45,236 nt of DNA from Escherichia phage CR01, in sequence record OR061068. One strand, 5' to 3'. Below, piece by piece: positions 1,714 through 25,409 of this stretch. The notes beneath the pieces are model-generated. The model made no database searches. It saw only the letters and a list, made by a program, of their open reading frames with translations, and was not told where the DNA came from. The position numbers and the translations under genes were made by a program. How positions within the stretch are numbered: the first letter of the stretch is position 1; each line of letters starts with the position of its first letter.

Positions 1714-2762
1714 ATGGCAATTACTACTATCGGCGATATCGTAACTGGCAACATCCCGGTCCTGGCGTCTTACATGACCGAGGACCCGGTAGAAAAACCG
1801 CGTTCTTCCAGTCTGGTATTCTGACCCCGACTCCATACGCTGCCGAGATTGCCCGCGGCTCGTCCAACATCGCTAACATCCCTTTCTGGAAAGCGATTGA
1901 TACTTCTATTGAGCCTAACTACTCGAACGACGTATACCAGGACATCGCAACCCCGCGTAACGTGCAGACCGGCGAGATGATGGCGCGCGTTGCATACCTG
2001 AACGAAGGCTTCGGCCAGGCAGACCTGACTGTAGAACTGACCAGTCAGAATCCGCTGCAATCCGTAGCGTCCCGTCTGGATAACTTCTGGCAGCGCCAGG
2101 CGCAACGCCGTCTGATTGCTACCGCGCTCGGTCTGTACAACGACAACGTAGCCGCTACCGATGAATACCATACGCAGAACGATATGGTTATCGACGTGTC
2201 TGCTTCTCTGGGCTTCGACGCTGGCGCATTCATCGACGCTACCCAGACTATGGGCGATGCGCTGATGGGCAACGGCGGTGAAGTGCTGGGCGCTATCGCG
2301 ATGCACAGCTTCGTTTATGCGCAGGCGCGTAAGCAGCAGCTTATCGACTTCATCAAAGATGCTGACAACGACACCCTGTTCGCCACCTACCAGGGCTACC
2401 GCGTGATTGTTGACGACAGCATGACCGTAGTTGGCTCCGGCTCGAGCCGTAAGTTCATCTCCATCATCTTCGGCAACGGCGCTATCGGTTACGGTGAAGG
2501 TAATCCGTCCAACCCGCTGGAATACGAGCGCGAAGCATCTCGCGGTAACGGCGGCGGCGTTGAAACCCTGTGGACCCGTAAGACCTGGTTGCTGCACCCA
2601 CTGGGCTACAGCTTCACCAGTGCGGTAATCACCGGCAACGGCACCGAGACTGTAGCCCGCTCTGCTTCCTGGCAGGACCTGGCGAACGCCTCCAACTGGA
2701 ACCGTGTTGTTGAACGTAAGCACGTACCTATTGCCTTCCTGGTAACTGGTGTCGGTGCTTAA
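1714..2762 (+). CDS. major capsid protein, interrupted by an apparent frameshift near the N-terminus
   Basis: ATG at 1714 reads MAITTIGDIVTGNIPVLASYMTEDPVEK then hits a stop at 1822; the -1 frame is open from ~1794 to 2762 (track ORF 1962..2762); A5 run at 1793-1797; followed by a terminator. Confidence 0.6.
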
Positions 2763-2777
2763 GGTTAAGCTATAATC

Positions 2778-2802
2778 GAGAGGGACTTCGGTCCCTCTTT
2801 TC
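2778..2802 (+). terminator. rho-independent terminator after the capsid gene
   Basis: GAGAGGGAC-TTCG-GTCCCTCTTTTC hairpin plus T-run. Confidence 0.6.
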
Positions 2803-2823
2803 ATTTACTAAGAGGATTCCTAA

Positions 2824-3165
2824 ATGGCAGACGTATTGAAACGACGCACCACCGGCGTCTCCGCTGACGCCCCGGGTGCCAAGATTGACATGGTGACTAT
2901 TTCTCCTGCGTCTTTCTCGTCCGCGCTGGCGGCTACTACCTCCGTTACCGCAGGCGAAACCATGACACTGACCGTAACCGTAACTGGCGGTCTGGAGCCG
3001 TATTCCTACCAGTGGTATAAGAACAACAACGCCATCGCCGGGGCTACCGAGGCCACCTATGCTAAAGCGTCGACCACTACCGCCGATTCAGGCACGTATA
3101 AAGTGGTTGTTCACGATGCGTATGGTAATATTATCTCCAGCAGCACCGTAGCAACTGTGTCTTAA
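2824..3165 (+). CDS. Ig-like domain protein (candidate capsid decoration protein)
   Basis: 113 aa; motifs TLTVTVTGG, YQWYKNNNAI, DSGTYKVVV typical of Ig-like I-set/Big domains; sits directly after the capsid gene. Confidence 0.5.
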   Translation: MADVLKRRTTGVSADAPGAKIDMVTISPASFSSALAATTSVTAGETMTLTVTVTGGLEPYSYQWYKNNNAIAGATEATYAKASTTTADSGTYKVVVHDAYGNIISSSTVATVS

Positions 3166-4041: not shown

Positions 4042-4656
4042 ATGGCGAAGACTAAATCAGAGATGTTCACCCTCATCGGCGCGAATCTCCCCGATAACAC
4101 CAACGGTGCCATCACACCCGCGAAGCTACGCGAGGTAATGACGCAGATGGCGGACTCACCTATTTACGCCACTCCCGGTGTTAAAGAGGTTGAAGTTCTC
4201 CGCGCAGCGTCGACCGTGATACAAGTGCCCACCGCAACGAACACGGCGTTGCAGTTAACTTTTGGAGCTGCACAGGGTAGCGCATCCGACCCTGTAATGA
4301 TTAATGCCGCGGGGCTGGTTACGTTCAACACCGCGGGTAACTATGCCGTTCGCATCAAGTTACAGGCTGGGCGCACGGGGGCTAGCGGAACGTCTATCCT
4401 GTTATCACGCCTTCTTCTGAACGGCGCTCAGTACGGCTCGCCCGCAGCTACTAAACTGGTAAGCGCGGATACCACAATCCCGATTGAGTCTCGCGTCGTT
4501 ATTAACCCGACCGCAGGCCAGACGTTTGCCGTTCAGATTATGCGGGATAGCGCCGGGAGTAACTTCGGCGGCGTATACCCGCAAGCGGCTACGGTAACTG
4601 CATGGGGCACAGCACCATCTGCGCTACTGGTTATTTCGAGACTGGAGGCTGCGTAA
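4042..4656 (+). CDS. hypothetical virion structural protein
   Basis: 204 aa ORF in the head-tail gene block; Ala/Thr/Gly-rich. Confidence 0.35.
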   Translation: MAKTKSEMFTLIGANLPDNTNGAITPAKLREVMTQMADSPIYATPGVKEVEVLRAASTVIQVPTATNTALQLTFGAAQGSASDPVMINAAGLVTFNTAGNYAVRIKLQAGRTGASGTSILLSRLLLNGAQYGSPAATKLVSADTTIPIESRVVINPTAGQTFAVQIMRDSAGSNFGGVYPQAATVTAWGTAPSALLVISRLEAA

Positions 4657-4787
4657 TGCGAAAAATAATTAATATGTGGATTAACTCTGATTTTTTGTGG
4701 AAGTACGAATTTTTGGTATCAGTGTTTGCGCTGGTATCAACAACAGCTCTAATTATATTTTTAGCGGTTTGCGGGGAGTCAACATGA
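4656..4787 (+). CDS. small AT-rich membrane protein ORF (43 aa) inside the structural module
   Basis: ATG overlaps the upstream stop (TAATG) and its own stop overlaps the next ATG (ATGA); one hydrophobic helix FLVSVFALVSTTALIIFLAV; local AT content visibly higher than the flanks. Confidence 0.35.
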   Translation: MRKIINMWINSDFLWKYEFLVSVFALVSTTALIIFLAVCGEST

Positions 4788-5143
4788 GCACCGCTTTCAG
4801 CAAACGTATGCAGGGCGTGGGTACACGCCTGCTAACCAAATTCGGCAGCACAGTATCTCTGGTTCGCGCTGGCTCGAAAGTGTGGGATGAAGTTCTCGGT
4901 GAATGCGTCTGGTCCGCCGACGAAGTGTTGCCTTTGAAGGCCGTTCCGGTTCCGGTAAACGCGGGGCTGGTTAACGGTGCGACGATTCAGGCTGACGACA
5001 TGATTGTTAAAGCGGATTACAGCGTCGTTCCGAAGATGGAAGACAAGGTGCAATTCGGCGGCGAGCAATGGTCTGTCGTAGCTATCGAGAAGAAGATGGT
5101 TAACGATGATGTCGTGGCCTACTTTATCCAGGTGAGAAAATGA
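4784..5143 (+). CDS. putative head closure / head-tail joining protein
   Basis: 119 aa from ATG 4784 (the track ORF extends spuriously upstream to 4697); position between connector and neck genes. Confidence 0.4.
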   Translation: MSTAFSKRMQGVGTRLLTKFGSTVSLVRAGSKVWDEVLGECVWSADEVLPLKAVPVPVNAGLVNGATIQADDMIVKADYSVVPKMEDKVQFGGEQWSVVAIEKKMVNDDVVAYFIQVRK

Positions 5144-17886: not shown

Positions 17887-19332
17887 ATGTCAAGCGGATG
17901 CGGTGACGTTTTAAGCCTGGCGGATTTACAGATCGCCAAAAAACACCAGATTTTCGAAGCCGAGGTTATCACAGGTAAATCCGGCGGGGTTGCTGGGGGC
18001 GCGGATATTGATTACGCGACCAATGCTGTTACGGGTCAGGCACAGAAAACGCTACCTGCTGTGTTGCGCGACGCTGGCTTTTCTCCCGTGTCGTGGGATT
18101 TCTCAACCGGCGGAACGTTAACAGTTAACGACCGCGATAAAGTTGTCTATGACCCTGTAAGTAAAACATGGTACTCGTACTTGGGAACACTACCGGTTAC
18201 GGTTCCAGCGGGTTTTAATCCTGTTGGCAACGCAGACTGGAGACCGCAGACAGACCCGGATTTGCGTACGGAGTTAGGGTCCGCCCAAGGTGCCGATATG
18301 ATCGGACTCCCGCAAGGTGGTACTGTGGCGCAAGGGGTAGATGTGGTAACGCCCGCTATGTTTGGCGCTATTGGCGACGGCGTTGCAGATGACTCAGTTG
18401 CAATACAGGCCGCAATGGATTATTGCCAGATTAACAATAGAAAGCTAGTCATTCCATCCCGGCGCTATCGAATCACCAAGCCATTGCTATATCGCAACCA
18501 GGGATTTTATAACTATGAGATTGAAGGGCACGGAGGTGCTGCTGTACTTATCATGGATTCTCTGGAAAAAACTGGAATTACCGCACCTGATGCCTTTGGC
18601 GATGATTTTAACGTTAACGCCGCGATGGTAGTTCTGAATGACACTAACCAGAGTAAGTATTGCCGCATTAGTGGATTGCGCTTCGAATCACCAGTTGGTG
18701 CTGAATACGCTATTTATGTTGGGCAAACCGAGAATAGCTATATCCATGACTGCTTTTTTACTGGGTTCACATTTGGATGGTACGACATTGGATCATGGAT
18801 ATGCCGGATAGAGCGATGTGTCGCGCGCAGTATTGTAGATACTGGTTTTTTCAAGAAGACTGGGACGAGTACTAATATCAGTGAATGCTATGCGGACCAG
18901 ATGGAGCGAGGGTATTATTTAGGCGGTGGGTATTCGTCGATAGTAAATTGCGCATGTGATAAGACCACGCGCTGGGGTTATTACTTTAAAGGCGGCCCTG
19001 CAGGAACCGATTTAGCTACGTTCAGTATGAAAGGGTGCGGCTCAGAGCAATCAGGTGCAGATTCAGTATTCTACGTGGACGGCTTGGTTTCGCTAAGCAT
19101 AGAAGACCATAACGCGTTCAACGATCCTTCTTTATCCGCCGCGCCAGCTGCATTACTTAGCATGGCTTCGAATACATCATATTCACAAGTTGTGCTGAAA
19201 AATATTAGAACAGTAAATGTAGATACATTAATTTTGGATGCTGCTGACCATAATTATTTTGATTTAACAAACGTCACATGTCGTAGCGCCATGTCTAAAG
19301 AGTTTTACTTAGGAGTAATTCAAGAGTTTTAA
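17887..19332 (+). CDS. tailspike / tail fibre with pectate-lyase-like beta-helix domain (candidate polysaccharide depolymerase)
   Basis: 481 aa; motif FGAIGDGVADDSVAIQAAMDYC typical of pectate lyase-3 / beta-helix glycosidase folds used by phage depolymerases. Confidence 0.55.
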   Translation: MSSGCGDVLSLADLQIAKKHQIFEAEVITGKSGGVAGGADIDYATNAVTGQAQKTLPAVLRDAGFSPVSWDFSTGGTLTVNDRDKVVYDPVSKTWYSYLGTLPVTVPAGFNPVGNADWRPQTDPDLRTELGSAQGADMIGLPQGGTVAQGVDVVTPAMFGAIGDGVADDSVAIQAAMDYCQINNRKLVIPSRRYRITKPLLYRNQGFYNYEIEGHGGAAVLIMDSLEKTGITAPDAFGDDFNVNAAMVVLNDTNQSKYCRISGLRFESPVGAEYAIYVGQTENSYIHDCFFTGFTFGWYDIGSWICRIERCVARSIVDTGFFKKTGTSTNISECYADQMERGYYLGGGYSSIVNCACDKTTRWGYYFKGGPAGTDLATFSMKGCGSEQSGADSVFYVDGLVSLSIEDHNAFNDPSLSAAPAALLSMASNTSYSQVVLKNIRTVNVDTLILDAADHNYFDLTNVTCRSAMSKEFYLGVIQEF

Positions 19333-19341
19333 AAAGGACGT

Positions 19342-19721
19342 ATGATGGCACGCGATTTATTACTAGCAACGACCAAGTTGGTATTGGATTTACGGAATCT
19401 GATATCGTTGACGGATGGACAGATCTCACTTTATCTGGGTTGCGAAATGGGCAGTTTGTAATTAGAAGGTCTATATCCGTATCTAGGACTTCGGGAGACG
19501 CTGGTGCGGCAGTTGTAACACTCCCTTTTAATATGAACACCAATTACACTGTTGCAGCTACGCTTGAAGGTACATTCAGTCAGCTGCAATCCATTTGCCC
19601 TGTGTTCAGTGTTACAGATAAAACATCATCTAGTTTTTCCTTGTGTGCGTCATCGGCAAAAGGCAACACTTCATGGTCGGCTATAACTGTTGAAGTTATT
19701 ATATATGGGTTAAAAGCTTAA
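19342..19721 (+). CDS. tailspike-associated hypothetical protein, apparently frameshifted near 19437-19446
   Basis: ATG 19342 opens a 39-codon frame ending at 19461; track ORF 19440..19721 continues in the -1 frame; the two join if one base is added to a short homopolymer. Confidence 0.3.
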
Positions 19722-19750: not shown

Positions 19751-19887
19751 TACTCTTCCGATAACTTCTCCAGTACAAACGCCAGTTGCGCATTAGCGGC
19801 ATCTCTCTGTTGCCGTAGTCGTAGAACCTCCTCCTCAAGTTCCTTGATACGTTTTTGCAATGCCGGAATCGGTGCTATGATGTTCAT
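19750..19887 (-). CDS. small coiled-coil protein (45 aa)
   Basis: ATG overlaps the stop of the Toprim gene (ATGA); reads MNIIAPIPALQKRIKELEEEVLRLRQQRDAANAQLAFVLEKLSEE. Confidence 0.3.
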   Translation of the reverse strand: MNIIAPIPALQKRIKELEEEVLRLRQQRDAANAQLAFVLEKLSEE

Positions 19888-20399
19888 CTGGTAAATTTCC
19901 TCGCAAGATACGTTATTTCTTCTTCACAAAGTTCATCAAGGTCGTTTGACACAAATCCTCTGGTGAATGTTTTGCTGAACTTTAAGCCAGCTTTATCATT
20001 GTCGCCCGCGCACACCCAGTCATACGGCAAAAGTGACATTTGCTGCCGTAGGTCGGTTGGTATATTTGACCCAAGTGCGCTTACGGCATTGAACCCGCAA
20101 TTCATCAAAGCAACAGCCTTAAATATGCTTTCGGTAACAAATACGGTCCCGCTTTCCGGAAGGTATTCCAACCCCCATAAACAAGGTCTTGTTGTTCTGG
20201 TGAAGTACCGCGCGTCTTTAGGGTTTTTACAGTTCTTTTCAGCATGTGGCTTGTAATGCTGGTATCCGCGAAGCCTACCATCAAACCCCCACAGGTAAAA
20301 TGTAGCTACTCCAGAGCCTAAGACTACACGTAAACGGTCAGCGTCAAAACCTCGTGACAGCAGATGCACCTTAAGTAGTAACTCCTCGCAATCCATCAT
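19884..20399 (-). CDS. Toprim-domain protein
   Basis: 171 aa; conserved Glu (VFVTESIF) and DxD (VCAGDNDKAG) motifs in Toprim spacing; start overlaps the SNF2 helicase stop. Confidence 0.4.
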   Translation of the reverse strand: MMDCEELLLKVHLLSRGFDADRLRVVLGSGVATFYLWGFDGRLRGYQHYKPHAEKNCKNPKDARYFTRTTRPCLWGLEYLPESGTVFVTESIFKAVALMNCGFNAVSALGSNIPTDLRQQMSLLPYDWVCAGDNDKAGLKFSKTFTRGFVSNDLDELCEEEITYLARKFTR

Positions 20400-21820
20400 T
20401 TCTTACCTCGTCTCTTCATGTAATTAAGCAATTCTTCCTGGACCGATTTCTTCTCGTCGGTACGCGCGGCAACAACCTCGTCCAGCGTATCTTTAGCAAC
20501 GATATGATAGAGGAACACCGGTCGCTCGTGACCCGCCTGTTTCTGGCGTACAGGGCCTATGCGCTCGACAACCTGCAAATAGTGCTCAAGGTTCCAGCCT
20601 TGCGAGATGAATGCCAGATGATGCCCTCCGTCCTGTAAATTCAAACCATGGCCGGCTGACGCGGGGTGAACGCATAAGATTTCGATTTCCCCGCGGTTCC
20701 ACGCTTCCATCTGCTTATTACCCTTCGCACCTTTGGCAAACGCCTGCGCCTGAGGGAATCGCTTAAGGATGCGCTCCAGTTCGTGCTTGAACTGATAAGC
20801 CACCAGTAACGTAGCGCCCTGTAACTCCTCAACGATGGACTCCAGCGCATCCAGTTTCGTGTCGTGCACTTTCTCCCAGTCTTTCGTTGCTTCTCCGTCT
20901 GGCCCCGATACATATACAGCGCCGGATGCAATCTGTAGGCACTTCGACGTCTTAGCTGCAGCGTTAGCCGCTTCGACTTCTCCGCTCTCCAGTTCCGCGA
21001 ATAATTTCTCCTCCATATCGATGTACGCCTGACGCGCTTTCTTCGGCAGGTCGATTTCAACCGGTACAATAATCGGTGCTTCGCACCCGAACCACTCGGC
21101 GGCGTCAATCGTGAGACTAATGTCCTTCATCTTCTGGTGAATTTCATTATCCGCACCAGGGCGCGCATGATACTCCCGCGCCATAGCCGATTTGCCTTTC
21201 TGCACCGAGTTAAACCAGCGGTCGGTGAATGCGGTGTATGAAGACCCCAGGCGCTCGCCAGCGTCGATAAACCAGTTCTGGCCCCACAAATCCTTGAGGC
21301 CGTTAGGTGATGGTGTACCTGTAAGGTTAATGAAACGCTTAACCTTACCGAACGCCACTTTGCTTAGCGCCTTCGCCCGCTTGCTTCCGCCAGAACGGCT
21401 GCGGAAAGATTTAAGCTTCGTGCTTTCATCGGCAACGATAACAGTAAATGGCCAGTCGTCTTTGCCGTAGTAGTCAATCAGCCACTCGATAACTTCGTAG
21501 TTCGTGCACACCACGTTAGCGTCTGACTCCAGCGCCGCGATGCGGCGCTTCTCCGAACCAGTTGCATCGACGACACGAAGACACGGGAAACCCCACTTAG
21601 TTTGTTCTGCGGGCCACGTGCCAGATGCAACTCGCAATGGGGCAAGGATTAACACTCGGTCGTCGTCATTAAGTTGGCCATTGCGGAACAGTCGATTGAG
21701 AACCCACATCGTCGACGAGGTCTTGCCGCCGCCCATACCGCACCAGATATTGCAACGTGGGTGCTGTAGCATAAACGACGTCATTATTTTCTGATATTCC
21801 CTGCGCCTAAACTTACTCAT
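20396..21820 (-). CDS. SNF2-family helicase/ATPase
   Basis: 474 aa; Walker A GMGGGKTS, DEXH-like VIVADESTKLK, C-terminal helicase-like region. Confidence 0.7.
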   Translation of the reverse strand: MSKFRRREYQKIMTSFMLQHPRCNIWCGMGGGKTSSTMWVLNRLFRNGQLNDDDRVLILAPLRVASGTWPAEQTKWGFPCLRVVDATGSEKRRIAALESDANVVCTNYEVIEWLIDYYGKDDWPFTVIVADESTKLKSFRSRSGGSKRAKALSKVAFGKVKRFINLTGTPSPNGLKDLWGQNWFIDAGERLGSSYTAFTDRWFNSVQKGKSAMAREYHARPGADNEIHQKMKDISLTIDAAEWFGCEAPIIVPVEIDLPKKARQAYIDMEEKLFAELESGEVEAANAAAKTSKCLQIASGAVYVSGPDGEATKDWEKVHDTKLDALESIVEELQGATLLVAYQFKHELERILKRFPQAQAFAKGAKGNKQMEAWNRGEIEILCVHPASAGHGLNLQDGGHHLAFISQGWNLEHYLQVVERIGPVRQKQAGHERPVFLYHIVAKDTLDEVVAARTDEKKSVQEELLNYMKRRGKK

Positions 21821-22313
21821 GCCTTGAACTCCCCGAAGTATATTTCCGCGGCTCTTTGGTATACGCGCGACGCTTCTTCTATAGTATCAAAATAGCCAAG
21901 GTGGATGTATTTGTTATTGACGCCTATTCTGGCGCGCCACCTGCCAGAGGATATTTGGTAAACCCCTATCGCGCCGCTAGTGTTATGTGATGAGCAGTCT
22001 CGGTTCTGAATCTGCTGGCTCCTGGCTGCTGGCCTTATATTATTTATGGCGTTATTAGCCCTGTTACGGTCTTTATGGTCAAGCTCACCGTTATGATATT
22101 CTCCGTAGACGAAAGCCCATGCCAGATGGTGGGCTTTTATTCTTACACCGGAGACTGTAATAACTATGTATCCTTTGTCGTTTGGCCCTCCGGCTACCTC
22201 CCCGCATTTCTCCCTTTAATGCTTACTTTTCGTGTAAATATACCTGTTTCGGGGTCATAGTTAAGAAGACGTTTCGCCTCCTCAATATCAGGCCTTCTTG
22301 TTAATTTGTTCAT
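21817..22313 (-). CDS. HNH homing endonuclease with AP2-like DNA-binding domain, frameshifted at C-run 22200-22203
   Basis: Not in the ORF track because it is split; N-terminal MNKLTRRPDIEEAKRLLNYDPETGIFTRK, then after adding one base KAHHLAWAFVYGEYHNGELDHKDRNRANNAINNIR (HNH) and GVYQISSGRWRARIGVNNKYIHLGYFDTIEEASRVYQRAA (AP2-like); ATGA overlaps with both neighbours. Confidence 0.6.
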
Positions 22314-22501
22314 TTCAGCACCAGAACTAATTCCTTACGCCCGAACGCCGTAACGTTACCGGTTACATCTTCGATAACCAGTTTACCGTTCGACTCGACG
22401 TACACCGTATCAACGGCAACAGGTCGGCGCGTCTTAACGTTGAAAATCATGTCGCCAGGTACGATGTCACGTGCTGGTTTGCGGTCATATTCGTGTTTCA
22501 T
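22310..22501 (-). CDS. hypothetical protein (63 aa)
   Basis: Track ORF; downstream of promoter-like copy at 22534-22562. Confidence 0.35.
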   Translation of the reverse strand: MKHEYDRKPARDIVPGDMIFNVKTRRPVAVDTVYVESNGKLVIEDVTGNVTAFGRKELVLVLK

Positions 22502-22531: not shown

Positions 22532-22831
22532 CTAACTATAATAGCTCGCTATTAGGTCGTCAACCTGTTTAAACGAACCAACGACAAAAACATTAGCACC
22601 GCGTTTACACATCCGCTCATGCTCCCGTAACTGGTGCGGGTCTGGCTTCGTGTTTTCGTCTTTCTTCACCTCGACGAACCAGATGATGCCACCAGGGAGA
22701 ATTGCCAGCAGGTCGGGGGCGCCGGAACGTCCTTCGTAGGAGAGCTTACGAACGAGGCCCCCAATGGCCTCGAATCGGTCTTTGCGTATTTCTGAATCTT
22801 GCCTTCCGGGGTCACAGCAAAGGCTCCGCAT
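22532..22831 (-). CDS. VRR-NUC domain nuclease
   Basis: About 99 aa from ATG 22831; motif RSGAPDLLAILPGGIIWFVEVKK (PD...E-x-K). Confidence 0.5.
   Translation of the reverse strand: MRSLCCDPGRQDSEIRKDRFEAIGGLVRKLSYEGRSGAPDLLAILPGGIIWFVEVKKDENTKPDPHQLREHERMCKRGANVFVVGSFKQVDDLIASYYS
22534..22562 (-). promoter_or_regulatory. sigma70-like promoter with operator palindrome
   Basis: Reverse complement TTGACG-ACCTAATAGCGAGCTAT-TATAGT; contains AATAG-N5-CTATT. Confidence 0.45.
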
Positions 22832-23006
22832 CCGGGTTACGCAGGAAGTACGCTTGATAGATGTCGTGTTCCGAATAGTAAACACCTTTGTGTGTGCACC
22901 CCGCACAAACGTCACTAAAGAACCCATCACCCATTACCATGATAAATTCCCATTCCGGCATATCCACTAACGCAGCTAGTTTCTTACTAAATGGCTTGTT
23001 ACTCAT
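22812..23006 (-). CDS. hypothetical Cys-containing protein (64 aa)
   Basis: ATG 23006 (MSNKPFSKK...); contains CAGCTHKG; overlaps the VRR-NUC start by ~20 nt. Confidence 0.3.
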   Translation of the reverse strand: MSNKPFSKKLAALVDMPEWEFIMVMGDGFFSDVCAGCTHKGVYYSEHDIYQAYFLRNPDAEPLL

Positions 23007-23209: not shown

Positions 23210-25409
23210 TTACTTAGCATAACGTTTTAACTCCTGACCTTCCGCTACAAGAGGGAACCCCTCGGCCCACTCCGGCAACGCACACATTAATTTTTCCAGT
23301 TCAGCCACCGTGTACTCAGGTGTGTCCGGAGTTTCACACACTAATTCATCGTGTACCGAAAGCACGATGGGGTACCCGCCGCCCTCAACATTAATCATCG
23401 CATATGCGAGCAAATCACGGCACAGCGCCTGAACAATGTTTTCGCAGGCTTTGCCGCCGTGGGTGTACAGGGTAGTCCATTGGCGGGTTAACTGGTTTTC
23501 ACCCTGATACTTGATTCGCACATTCGTGTTTACCCGTCCGTCTTCGTCTGTTTCCTTTGTCACACTAACGCCGATTCCCGGATACGAGAGGATGCGACCC
23601 GACGGCAACTCCATACACAACCACCAACCAGGAACCTTCCTGCCGGATGAATCAAATTCTACAGTACGCCATATGCGGATAGCACGCTCGCCATTCTTGC
23701 GCAGATGCGCCCCGCCCAAAATTCACGACCAGGATTACGAACAGCAGCTAAAATTCCGTCTTTAAGGTCGCGCCAGAAAGCTACTGTTTCAGGGTGGGAC
23801 TCCCGCCACATACGCTTGATAGCGTCGCAGGTACGCCACACTTTCTTATCAAGAATATACGATGGTCGGTCATCCTTTTCACCGGGATGTGGCGGTCGCT
23901 TTGCTTCCTGAATACGCGCCCACTCATACCCACGTGCGGTAGCAGCCCAGATGTGGTCGGGGAAAGTCCCGTCCATTGTTTTTGCCATCTCAATAAGGTC
24001 AAGACCTAAGTTTTTAGCAAACGTAACGAACGCTCCGACGCCCCCTCATAGCCGAGGCCAAGCTCGCAAGCCTTGCCTATCTGTCTGATTTCCTTGAAGT
24101 TTTTCTTAATATCATCTGGGTCCATGCCAAACATCTTACCCGCGGTTACACAGTAAATATCCAACCCGGCGCGGAACGTATCAAGCGCGGTTTCCTCCCC
24201 AGCCAGCCACGCAAGCCCGCGACCTTCAACGTTAGAGTAGTCAGCAACAACAAACTTATGCCCTTCTTCCGGTATGATGCAGCTACGCACAGTAGATGCC
24301 GTCAGTTTTGCCACATCGAAACGGCGATGCGCTCGGCCCTTAAGTAACGCTGAAATGCCTTTATCCAGTTCATCATCGTGATAGTACCCGCGTGCGAGAT
24401 TCTGCGGCTGGAAGCCTTTACCCGCCCATCGCAGAGTACGTTTTGCCCCGCCATACTGTAAACAACCGCGACGGCGGTCGTCCGACGAGCGGCCTAACAG
24501 CAGCGGGTTATATTTCGTTGATGCGGTGGACGCGGCCCCGAGGCGCATTTCGATAATCGTGCGGGCGTCGTCAGGTAAATCATCGTCCGCCAGCAGGTCA
24601 TGAAGCGTTGACTTCTGCGCGTTGTGGATGCGGTGCGCGGGGGCGAGTTCACGCAGAATCGGCAGAAAGTCTTTACCGGTAAGCGAGCCGCCGTATTTGC
24701 GTTGGGCTTCTTCCTGTAACTGTGCCTTGTGCTTCTCCACGGCTTCAATCGCGGCTTCCGCCAGTGCAACGTCAACCTTAAACCCACGGTCATTGATTAA
24801 CTGGTCAAGTTCCAGTACACGGTCCTCGAACTCGGAGTTACCCCAACGCGGCAGCTTATGAAAGACTTCACGCATCGCGGTGATGTCGCTCACGGCGTAC
24901 TTGATGAACAGCGCCCACTCGTCCGGGTGTGTTTCGGCGGTGTAACGGCGGATTTTGTAGTTCTTCGGTGTAGGTTTGGAGAAACGCTGAATCAGCGCCT
25001 TGCCGCGTTTATCTTTCGCGTTGTCCGCGGATACACACAACACTTCGCACAATGCATCGAGCGACCCCGGCAGCGCGTGGCGAAACGCCCAAATCATCGT
25101 ATCAATGGTGTTGCTTACCGGAATATCAAAGCCCCAGCAGTGCTTCATGATGAGCCTGTCGAACATTGAGCCGTTGTGCCACACCATCTTAATGCGGCTG
25201 TTCGGCTTAACCAGACGGCGTAGTGCGCGGTGCAAATCACCCGGCATGTCGCTGCTGTCGGTGCAATCCCATACCTGCACAGGCTCGTCGTCAAAAGCAT
25301 AGGTACAGATTAGCACTTCGGTAGTTGGGTGTTCGGCATAAGCGTAGGAGCCGACTTTCTTTAAATCGGCTTCGGAGAATGTTTCAAAGTCCAGGTATAA
25401 GTAGCTCAT
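23210..25409 (-). CDS. family A DNA polymerase with 3'-5' exonuclease domain, split by two homopolymer frameshifts
   Basis: N-terminal exonuclease motif LYLDFETFS; pol motif B-like RQIGKACELGLGYEG; motif C SVHDELV; frame changes at C5 run 24041-24045 and C4 run 23710-23713 are each repaired by adding one base. Confidence 0.8.

What the first reader, a model, noticed from the sequence alone, without database searches (positions are those of the whole stretch)
21817..22313. Free-standing HNH-AP2 homing endonuclease wedged between SNF2 helicase and neighbouring genes
The gene is missed by the ORF track because it is split at a C-run. After repair it shows a clear HNH core (HHLAW...DHKDRNRANNAINNIR) and an AP2-type DNA-binding domain. 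It is tightly packed with ATGA overlaps on both sides, typical of homing endonucleases that invade operons next to replication genes. If the frameshift is real, it is a decaying selfish element.
Basis: partly seen in the sequence, partly recalled or inferred. Interest (0 to 1): 0.4.

Follow-up and report, generated by a model that had tools for sequence, protein, structure and literature searches.

The report
Known phage homing endonuclease, misassembled
This is an ordinary, already-annotated HNH-AP2 homing endonuclease gene of Kagunavirus/Jerseyvirus-type phages, and its apparent frameshift is almost certainly one of many single-base homopolymer errors in this genome assembly, not a sign of gene decay.

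Summary
On the minus strand, 22313..21817 encodes a 165-aa protein in two frames, split at a G4 run (C4 at 22200-22203 on the + strand), with ATGA overlaps to the upstream 63-aa gene and the downstream SNF2 helicase. The repaired protein has an I-HmuI-like HNH (His-Asn-Asn) nuclease domain and a C-terminal AP2 domain.

The window is a Guernseyvirinae phage, about 98% identical to Escherichia phage M01. Relatives such as fFiEco03 carry the same gene intact (498 nt, G5), annotated "putative homing endonuclease". Other relatives have the slot empty or filled with different cargo. All seven HE+ alleles share a private variant of helicase nt 13-21. This fits a mobile homing endonuclease gene.

The "decaying element" reading is not supported. 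The window has at least 12 uncompensated 1-nt deletions, nearly all homopolymer contractions. They also break the terminase, portal, capsid, DNA polymerase (twice), primase-helicase and tailspike genes. Against a closely related (95.5% nt) short-read contig with all these genes intact, 6 of 26 runs of 5 nt or more are contracted, including 3 of 6 C runs. The repaired protein is residue-for-residue identical to an intact protein in that contig.

Verdict: known element, frameshift an assembly artefact (about 0.85). Low interest.

The parts
22200..22313 (-). 5' segment of the endonuclease gene: ATG (22313-22311) plus codons 1-38 (MNKLTRRPDIEEAKRLLNYDPETGIFTRKVSIKGRNAG). As assembled, this frame runs on to a TAG at 22196-22194, giving a 39-aa ORF.
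   Evidence: tblastn residues 1-38, 100% identical to fFiEco03 and to the L076 protein
22200..22203 (-). Homopolymer at the frame break: G4 on the coding strand (C4 on +). It is G5 in every other copy of the gene except the sibling record M01.
21817..22200 (-). 3' segment of the endonuclease gene: codons 39-165 (EVAGG...GEFKA) plus a TGA at 21819-21817. It holds the HNH/HNN nuclease core (H62, D79, H80, N88, N92, N104) and the AP2 domain (about residues 113-160). There is no internal canonical start codon.
22310..22501 (-). Upstream 63-aa gene (PHROG 4879, unknown function). Its TGA overlaps the endonuclease ATG (ATGA). It is the conserved left border of the insertion slot.
20396..21820 (-). 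SNF2-family DNA helicase (474 aa). Its ATG overlaps the endonuclease TGA (ATGA). It is the conserved right border of the slot.
21773..21808 (-). Helicase nt 13-48: a sequence variant that co-segregates with the endonuclease. Nt 13-21 are AGGCGCAGG in 7/7 HE+ alleles, against CAAAGGCGC or ATCCGTCGA in the HE- alleles. Inferred to be a co-conversion tract and/or a cleavage-immune target variant.
22535..22563 (-). Sigma-70-like promoter match (TTGACG-17-TATAGT) upstream of the 63-aa gene. It is the likely promoter for the 63-aa gene / endonuclease / helicase operon. A phage promoter is annotated at the equivalent place in fBC-Eco01.
   Evidence: consensus match only

Best explanation
The locus is an intact-in-reality, free-standing homing endonuclease gene of the HNH(HNN)-AP2 class. 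It encodes 165 aa: an I-HmuI-like N-terminal beta-sheet domain and His-Me-finger nuclease domain, fused to an AP2 DNA-binding domain.

The gene sits as a precise ORF-sized insert (498 nt in intact copies) between a conserved 63-aa gene and the SNF2 helicase of a Kagunavirus/Jerseyvirus-type phage. It appears to be co-transcribed and translationally coupled with both neighbours through ATGA overlaps.

Inferred mechanism: during mixed infection the enzyme binds and nicks or cuts the endonuclease-free allele near the 63-aa-gene/helicase junction. Recombinational repair from the endonuclease-carrying genome then copies in the gene together with roughly the first 50-100 nt of the helicase gene. The carrier genome is protected by the insertion itself and by the private substitutions at helicase nt 13-36.

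The apparent frameshift (G4 instead of G5 at 22200-22203) is a homopolymer-contraction error of this assembly. It is neither a biological mutation nor a recoding signal.
For: Identity of the protein:
- Pfam HNH_3 above its cutoff, AP2 at 32.0 bits, PHROG 99 at E=2.7e-60.
- phmmer hits the AP2 domain of WRI1 (7wq5) at E=2e-7 and aligns DHKDRNRANNAINNIR to the I-HmuI motif DHKDGNKDNNLSTNLR.
- Among 44 homologs, D79, H80, N88, R94 and N104 are invariant, and H62 and N92 are at least 90% conserved.
- The AlphaFold model of the 98%-identical intact homolog has pLDDT 92.
- Foldseek's top hit is I-HmuI 1u3e (prob 1.0, 104 columns). Plant AP2 domains match at 0.6-0.9 A rmsd over 45-49 residues.

Mobility:
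- The same gene occurs in only 39 of about 450 related phage records.
- Among 68 IMG/VR loci the slot holds this gene (5 loci), a 62%-identical homolog (L051), an unrelated HNH-AP2 (L035), nothing (13 loci), or other cargo of about 680-1150 bp in the rest, including a C5-methylase.
- All 7 HE+ alleles share helicase nt 13-21 AGGCGCAGG, which none of the 39 HE- alleles has.
- The first 100 nt of helicase are 92-100% identical among HE+ genomes, against 72-77% to the four empty-slot genomes profiled. Beyond +100 nt there is no difference.

Artefact:
- fFiEco03, L012, L041 and L076-78 all have G5. Only the window and M01 have G4.
- The window has frame breaks in TerL (2), portal, MuF, MCP, metallophosphoesterase, DNA pol (2), nuclease and primase-helicase (2), and in tailspike and VRR-NUC.
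- Every uncompensated indel against the short-read contig L076 is a deletion in the window, and eight of the ten are 1-nt homopolymer contractions. Of runs of 5 nt or more, 6 of 26 are contracted, and 3 of 6 C runs.
- One contraction shared with M01 lies in the essential DNA polymerase (24043), so sharing with M01 does not make a deletion real.
- Flanking protein identity is 100% and 99% on the two sides of the break.
- The truncated 39-aa product exists nowhere in the gene collection except in M01.
Against: - No reads are available, so the G4 call cannot be disproved directly.
- M01, the closest record, has the same G4. That would fit a real inherited mutation if M01 were an independent, accurate assembly, but it is visibly error-ridden, with DNA polymerase annotated in 6 pieces.
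- Cleavage activity, the target site, and nick versus double-strand break are all inferred, not shown.
- The HE-associated helicase variant could partly reflect shared ancestry and not co-conversion.
- The AP2 hit is 1.3 bits under Pfam's gathering score.
Confidence: 0.85

Rival explanations
1. The single-G deletion is a real mutation. The gene is then a freshly inactivated homing endonuclease at the start of the decay phase of the homing cycle, making only a 39-aa N-terminal peptide.
For: - G4 is seen in both the window and M01.
- Degenerating HNN-AP2 genes are documented in other phages (PMC2248197).
- SS3e carries a frame break elsewhere in the same gene (L041; P0055 is 133 aa).
- The 3' frame has no start codon, so a real deletion would abolish the nuclease.
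Against: - The same error class breaks at least 10 other genes in the window, including essential ones.
- Half of the comparable C runs of 5 nt or more are contracted.
- A contraction shared with M01 also breaks DNA polymerase.
- There is no second lesion and no relaxed-selection signal: 100% and 99% aa identity on the two sides, and an exact match to intact P0048 after repair.
- The truncated product is absent from all other assemblies.
Confidence: 0.1
2. The two-frame arrangement is functional. The full-length endonuclease would be made by -1 ribosomal slippage of tRNA-Gly on G GGG, just before a rare AGG codon and a UAG stop. This would keep a toxic nuclease at low level.
For: - From the sequence alone: a -1 slip on GCG-GGG-A would give exactly the canonical ...NAGEVAGG... 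protein.
- AGG is a rare codon in E. coli, and a stop follows it (general knowledge).
Against: - The arrangement is not conserved. All 47 homologs are single ORFs of about 160-250 aa.
- Every other copy of this gene has G5 in one frame.
- There is no canonical X XXY YYZ heptamer.
- No downstream stimulatory structure was looked for, because non-conservation already argues against it.
- The artefact explanation accounts for the break fully.
Confidence: 0.02
3. The gene is intact but is not a homing element. It would be a domesticated nuclease or DNA-binding protein serving the phage, for example in replication or recombination next to the helicase, in host DNA degradation, or in exclusion of competing phages.
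For: - It is embedded by translational coupling in the replication operon.
- Nuclease genes at exchange boundaries can act in phage-phage competition (PMC10448857, listed, abstract only).
Against: - Its patchy presence (39 of about 450 relatives), the empty alleles, and the replacement by unrelated cargo at the same slot argue against any required function.
- The HE-linked flank variant is the classical homing signature.
- Competitive exclusion would be a consequence of the same cleavage activity, not a true alternative.
Confidence: 0.05

Closest known systems
FE3_035 (QNO11673.1) 'putative homing endonuclease' of Escherichia phage vB_EcoS_fFiEco03, and its orthologs in Salmonella phages SE2, S4lw, TUMS_E4/E6/E15/E19 and others
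   Same: Same gene at the same position between the 63-aa gene and the SNF2 helicase. Nucleotide identity is 98.8% for fFiEco03 and 94-96% for the Salmonella phages. Same 165-aa length, with the same ATGA overlaps in fFiEco03.
   Different: Only the one missing G in the G5 run, plus a few substitutions. The window copy is annotated or visible only as a 39-aa stub, as in M01.
I-HmuI (PDB 1U3E), the intron-encoded HNH homing endonuclease of Bacillus phage SPO1
   Same: N-terminal beta-sheet DNA-binding domain plus a His-Me-finger nuclease with a D-H...N...N motif. It is the top structural match (Foldseek prob 1.0, 104 aligned columns, 26% identity). I-HmuI is a strand-specific nicking enzyme (established knowledge), so nicking is plausible here.
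   Different: I-HmuI is intron-encoded and ends in two helices plus a helix-turn-helix domain. This protein is free-standing and ends in an AP2 domain. Sequence similarity is weak (phmmer E=0.23).
HNN-AP2 free-standing endonucleases of phages (Xanthomonas phages Xp10/OP1/Xop411, T5, T1, RB43), as in Lee et al. 2007 (PMC2248197) and Magnani et al. 2004
   Same: Same domain architecture (HNN-type HNH without zinc-binding cysteine dyads, followed by AP2). Same free-standing habit, patchy distribution, and tendency to degenerate.
   Different: Different phage lineage and insertion site. Here the insertion site is well defined and carries a linked flank variant, whereas the Xoo phage genes showed no conserved flanks.
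Plant AP2/ERF DNA-binding domains (AtERF1 1GCC, TEM1 7ET4, WRI1 7WQ5)
   Same: Three-stranded sheet packed on a helix. 35% identity and 0.6-0.9 A rmsd over 45-49 residues.
   Different: Here the domain is the targeting module of a nuclease, not a transcription factor.

Membership tests
HNH / His-Me finger endonuclease, HNH_3 (PF13392), I-HmuI-like | Profile match above the curated threshold | tested here: met
   HNH_3 33.9 bits against a cutoff of 24.8; PHROG 99 'HNH endonuclease' E=2.7e-60. NCBIfam gave no hit.
HNH / His-Me finger endonuclease, HNH_3 (PF13392), I-HmuI-like | Catalytic Asp-His general base and Asn metal/structural ligands (H-N-N motif) | tested here: met
   D79, H80, N88 and N104 are invariant, and H62 and N92 at least 90% conserved, in 44 homologs. 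All are present in the window's 3' frame. The motif aligns with the I-HmuI motif.
HNH / His-Me finger endonuclease, HNH_3 (PF13392), I-HmuI-like | Beta-beta-alpha-metal fold | tested here: met
   AlphaFold model of the 98%-identical intact homolog: pLDDT 92, pTM 0.80. Foldseek top hit is 1u3e, prob 1.0, E=1.3e-3. The model is of the homolog, not of the frameshifted window product.
HNH / His-Me finger endonuclease, HNH_3 (PF13392), I-HmuI-like | Metal-dependent DNA nicking or cleavage | not testable with these tools
   Needs an enzyme assay.
AP2/ERF DNA-binding domain (PF00847) | Profile match above the curated threshold | tested here: inconclusive
   32.0 bits against a gathering score of 33.3 (E=1.6e-7). 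phmmer to the WRI1 AP2 domain gives E=2e-7. Many homologs carry a precomputed PF00847 hit.
AP2/ERF DNA-binding domain (PF00847) | Three-stranded antiparallel sheet plus C-terminal helix fold | tested here: met
   The model has strands 118-120, 126-132 and 135-142 and helix 145-163. Foldseek to 7et4, 7et5 and 1gcc gives prob 1.0, rmsd 0.6-0.9 A, 35% identity.
Free-standing homing endonuclease gene (HEG) | Presence/absence polymorphism at one locus among close relatives, with a precise ORF-sized insertion | tested here: met
   Present in 39 of about 450 related records. The empty site in fBC-Eco01 and 13 IMG/VR loci joins the 63-aa gene directly to helicase. The insert is bounded by a repeated ATGA.
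Free-standing homing endonuclease gene (HEG) | Flank variant or co-conversion tract linked to the gene | tested here: met
   Helicase nt 13-21 is private to 7/7 HE+ alleles and absent from 39 HE- alleles. The identity excess is confined to the first 100 nt or less of helicase. This is correlative only.
Free-standing homing endonuclease gene (HEG) | Site-specific cleavage of the endonuclease-free allele and super-Mendelian inheritance | not testable with these tools
   Requires in vitro cleavage assays and phage crosses.
Decaying HEG / pseudogene | The inactivating lesion is real and accompanied by further degeneration | tested here: not met
   There is a single lesion, of the same class as at least 12 artefactual deletions (nearly all homopolymer contractions) elsewhere in the window. 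The repaired protein is identical to intact P0048. Whether the G4 call itself is real cannot be tested without reads.
Programmed -1 ribosomal frameshift gene | Two-frame organisation and slippery site conserved among homologs | tested here: not met
   All homologs are single ORFs. G5 is in frame in all other copies.

The most novel reading that the evidence does not exclude
The G4 allele would be real in the M01-type phage lineage, with full-length endonuclease still made at low level by -1 slippage on G-GGG before the rare AGG codon and the UAG stop. That would be a frameshift-attenuated homing endonuclease caught between activity and decay.
Probability: 0.02. Interest if true: 0.4.

Novelty: already known. 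Interest (0 to 1): 0.08.

Why it matters
Biologically it matters little. This endonuclease family, its domain architecture and even this exact gene are already annotated in related phages.

The practical value is as a quality flag. The window, like its GenBank sibling M01, carries systematic homopolymer contractions that split many genes. Any "split gene", "pseudogene" or "frameshift" finding in this window should be treated as an artefact until shown otherwise.

A minor positive result is a clean definition of the insertion site and of a helicase 5'-end variant of about 35-50 nt linked to the endonuclease. This gives a concrete candidate target site for anyone wishing to test homing in Kagunavirus or Jerseyvirus phages.

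Tried and rejected
- NCBIfam scan of the repaired protein: no hit.
- tblastn of the endonuclease against the whole window: no paralogs, only the two halves of this gene.
- phmmer against PDB for the nuclease half was weak (I-HmuI E=0.23). I therefore relied on the fold search.
- Programmed frameshifting was considered and rejected for lack of conservation.
- I considered that sharing of G4 with M01 proves a real mutation. I rejected this because M01 is itself fragmented and shares a contraction inside the essential DNA polymerase.
- I considered an HK97-type packaging HNH. I rejected this on gene position, the AP2 fusion and the patchy distribution.
- The first multiple-alignment attempt at an identity profile failed on empty bins. 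I redid it pairwise.
- Literature searches found no paper on this specific gene. They found only general reports of homing endonucleases and inteins in Jerseyvirus/Guernseyvirinae phages and of HNN-AP2 genes in other phages.
- The promoter/terminator scan gives only consensus-level support for an operon promoter.

Full report
**What is in the sequence**

The feature lies on the minus strand. An ATG at 22313-22311 opens a frame encoding MNKLTRRPDIEEAKRLLNYDPETGIFTRKVSIKGRNAG. As assembled, this frame runs into AGG-TAG (stop at 22196-22194), giving a 39-aa ORF.

One base back, the -1 frame continues from 22200 as EVAGGPNDKGYIVITVSGVRIKAHHLAWAFVYGEYHNGELDHKDRNRANNAINNIR...GEFKA, ending at a TGA at 21819-21817. 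The break coincides with C4 at 22200-22203 (G4 on the coding strand). The 127-codon downstream frame has no in-frame ATG, GTG or TTG, which explains why ORF listing misses it.

The start overlaps the stop of a 63-aa gene (22310-22501) in ATGA. The stop overlaps the start of the 474-aa SNF2 helicase (20396-21820) in ATGA.

**What the protein is**

- The repaired 165-aa sequence hits Pfam HNH_3 (33.9 bits, cutoff 24.8) and AP2 (32.0 bits, 1.3 below the cutoff).
- It hits PHROG 99 'HNH endonuclease' at E=2.7e-60.
- phmmer against PDB sequences finds the AP2 domain of WRI1 (E=2e-7). It also aligns DHKDRNRANNAINNIR with DHKDGNKDNNLSTNLR of I-HmuI.
- A database search found 47 homologs, all single ORFs, nearly all of about 160-190 aa. 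In an alignment of 44 of them, D79, H80, N88, R94 and N104 are invariant, and H62 and N92 nearly so. This is the cysteine-free 'HNN' variant of the HNH motif.
- An AlphaFold model of the 98%-identical intact homolog P0001 is confident (pLDDT 92, pTM 0.80).
- Its best PDB match is I-HmuI (1u3e, prob 1.0, 104 columns). The C-terminal 45-49 residues superpose on plant AP2 domains at 0.6-0.9 A rmsd.
- HNN-AP2 free-standing endonucleases are a long-known phage gene class (PMC2248197, which also cites Magnani et al. 2004).

**Genomic context and mobility**

The window is a Guernseyvirinae (Kagunavirus-like) phage. It is 98% identical over 25 kb to Escherichia phage M01 (OR061069, 'partial genome').

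- Phage fFiEco03 carries the same gene intact (498 nt, FE3_035, annotated 'putative homing endonuclease, HHpred to I-HmuI') in exactly the same place.
- fBC-Eco01 lacks it. There the 63-aa gene is followed directly by the helicase.
- Only 39 of about 450 related phage records contain the gene.

Among 68 IMG/VR loci retrieved through the helicase, the slot varies:
- this gene in 5 loci;
- a 62%-identical homolog in a distant clade (L051);
- an unrelated HNH_3+AP2 gene (L035);
- nothing in 13 loci;
- about 680-1150 bp of other cargo in the rest, such as a 309-aa C5-cytosine methylase or a 227-aa ORF.

All seven HE+ alleles share AGGCGCAGG at helicase nt 13-21. None of the 39 HE- alleles has it; they read CAAAGGCGC or ATCCGTCGA. 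The first 100 nt of helicase are 92-100% identical among HE+ genomes, but only 72-77% between the window and the four empty-slot genomes profiled. Further into the helicase and in the upstream gene, HE+ and HE- genomes are equally similar.

This is the classical pattern for a homing endonuclease gene: a precise insertion, patchy cross-lineage distribution (Escherichia and Salmonella phages), and a short linked flank that may be both a co-conversion tract and the immune version of the target. The activity itself is inferred, not shown.

**Is the frameshift real?**

Every other copy of the gene examined has G5. Only the window and M01 have G4. The aligned lengths are 498 nt for the intact copies and 497 nt for M01 and its twin record.

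The window is full of the same kind of lesion. Against fFiEco03 proteins, frame breaks occur in:
- terminase large subunit (2);
- portal;
- MuF-like head protein;
- major capsid protein;
- metallophosphoesterase;
- DNA polymerase (2);
- DUF2800 nuclease;
- primase-helicase (2).

Three-way alignments show that these are 1-nt deletions, nearly all in homopolymer tracts. One of those shared with M01 lies inside the essential DNA polymerase (24043).

The exact repaired 165-aa sequence exists in public data as P0048 (DAG81160.1). Two roughly 44-kb contigs from the Logan assemblies of public sequencing runs (taken here to be short-read data) encode it. They have the same gene order as the window and are 95.5% identical to it in nucleotides over 13.5 kb. 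All their genes are intact, including a 734-aa DNA polymerase and a 165-aa endonuclease.

Against that reference, every uncompensated indel is a deletion in the window, and eight of the ten are 1-nt homopolymer contractions:
- endonuclease: C5 to C4;
- VRR-NUC: T4 to T3;
- DNA polymerase: C5 to C4 and C6 to C5;
- nuclease: T5 to T4;
- tailspike: G3 to G2;
- two further runs: T5 to T4 and T6 to T5.

Six of 26 comparable runs of 5 nt or more are contracted, including 3 of 6 C runs. Protein identity is 99-100% on both sides of most breaks (100% and 99% at the endonuclease). The 39-aa truncated product is found nowhere in the 153-billion-gene collection except in M01.

The frameshift in the endonuclease is therefore one of a class of assembly errors. 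I put about 0.85 on artefact, about 0.10 on a real recent inactivation, and about 0.02 on functional -1 slippage. That last option is mechanically possible at G-GGG-AGG-UAG but is not conserved in any homolog.

**Mechanism (shown versus inferred)**

Shown here:
- domain architecture, catalytic motif and fold;
- the precise insertion site;
- the presence/absence polymorphism;
- the linked helicase 5' variant;
- the operon-like packing.

Inferred:
- transcription from the sigma-70-like promoter at 22563-22535 (consensus match only);
- translational coupling through the ATGA overlaps;
- binding through the N-terminal sheet and the AP2 domain;
- single-metal HNH nicking or cutting of the empty allele near the junction;
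- gene conversion that carries the gene plus roughly the first 50-100 nt of helicase.

**Comparison with known families, and novelty**

The gene is an ortholog of an already annotated gene (FE3_035 and many 'HNH/homing endonuclease' entries in Jerseyvirus and Kagunavirus genomes). It belongs to the known HNN-AP2 class. Nothing about it is new. The finding's one potentially interesting twist, decay by frameshift, is best explained by sequence quality. Interest is low (0.08).

Noticed in passing
whole window; e.g. 1794, 9096, 19314, 22781-22784, 23710, 24041-24046, 27564, 29752, 30492, 32251, 39833, 40826, 41392, 42639, 44249: The assembly carries at least 12 uncompensated single-base deletions, nearly all homopolymer contractions. 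They split the terminase large subunit (2), portal, MuF head protein, major capsid protein, metallophosphoesterase, tailspike, VRR-NUC, DNA polymerase (2), DUF2800 nuclease and primase-helicase (2). Any split-gene finding in this window should be treated as an artefact.
   Followed up: yes
window 23210-25409 (- strand): DNA polymerase I appears as three ORFs (25409-24006, 23988-23659, 23719-23210). It is a single 733-734-aa gene in fFiEco03 and in the short-read contig L076. The breaks are C6 to C5 at about 24041 and C5 to C4 at about 23710.
   Followed up: yes
window 22532-22930 (- strand): The 132-aa ORF is a VRR-NUC / Holliday-junction-resolvase-like gene. It is 94 aa in relatives. Its N-terminus is mis-extended by a T4 to T3 contraction at 22781-22784, which M01 shares.
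   Followed up: partly
window 17887-19721 (+ strand): The tailspike (611 aa in L076) is split into a 481-aa ORF and a 93-aa ORF by a G3 to G2 contraction at about 19314.
   Followed up: partly
window 19884-20399 (- strand); L010, L026, L029, L032, L034, L035, L044 at about 4431-4883: There is a second variable slot immediately downstream of the helicase. The window, L076 and L077 carry a 171-aa Toprim/primase-like ORF there (PHROG 849). fFiEco03 has a small hypothetical gene. Several IMG/VR relatives carry a different HNH-AP2 endonuclease, about 28-35% identical to the one studied.
   Followed up: partly
L038, L039, L040, L043, L060 (and L054): helicase residues 33/34: Relatives have an insertion of about 1 kb that splits the helicase between residues 33 and 34 in the P-loop (GMGGGKT|S). 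This is consistent with the 'intein-containing helicase' annotated in several Salmonella phages. It lies only about 100 nt from the endonuclease insertion site, so the helicase 5' end is a multi-element hot spot.
   Followed up: no
L008 2325-3008; L019 2079-3008: Alternative cargo occupies the same slot between the 63-aa gene and the helicase. One is a 309-aa C5-cytosine DNA methylase (PF00145, E=5.6e-17). The other is a 227-aa ORF with no Pfam match.
   Followed up: partly
GenBank PQ474795.1 (L006) versus OR061069.1 (L004): Phage vB_Eco_AMO_3701M has exactly the same length (45294 bp) and CDS coordinates as M01. Yet it differs by 675 substitutions and no indels over the 6.5 kb compared. This is an odd pattern and suggests the two records are not independent, high-quality assemblies.
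   Followed up: partly
L041 (Salmonella phage SS3e, AY730274) 2506-3001: The SS3e copy of the same endonuclease has its own frame break near residue 124-128 (499 nt; deposited protein 133 aa). I did not resolve whether this is genuine decay or an old sequencing error.
   Followed up: no
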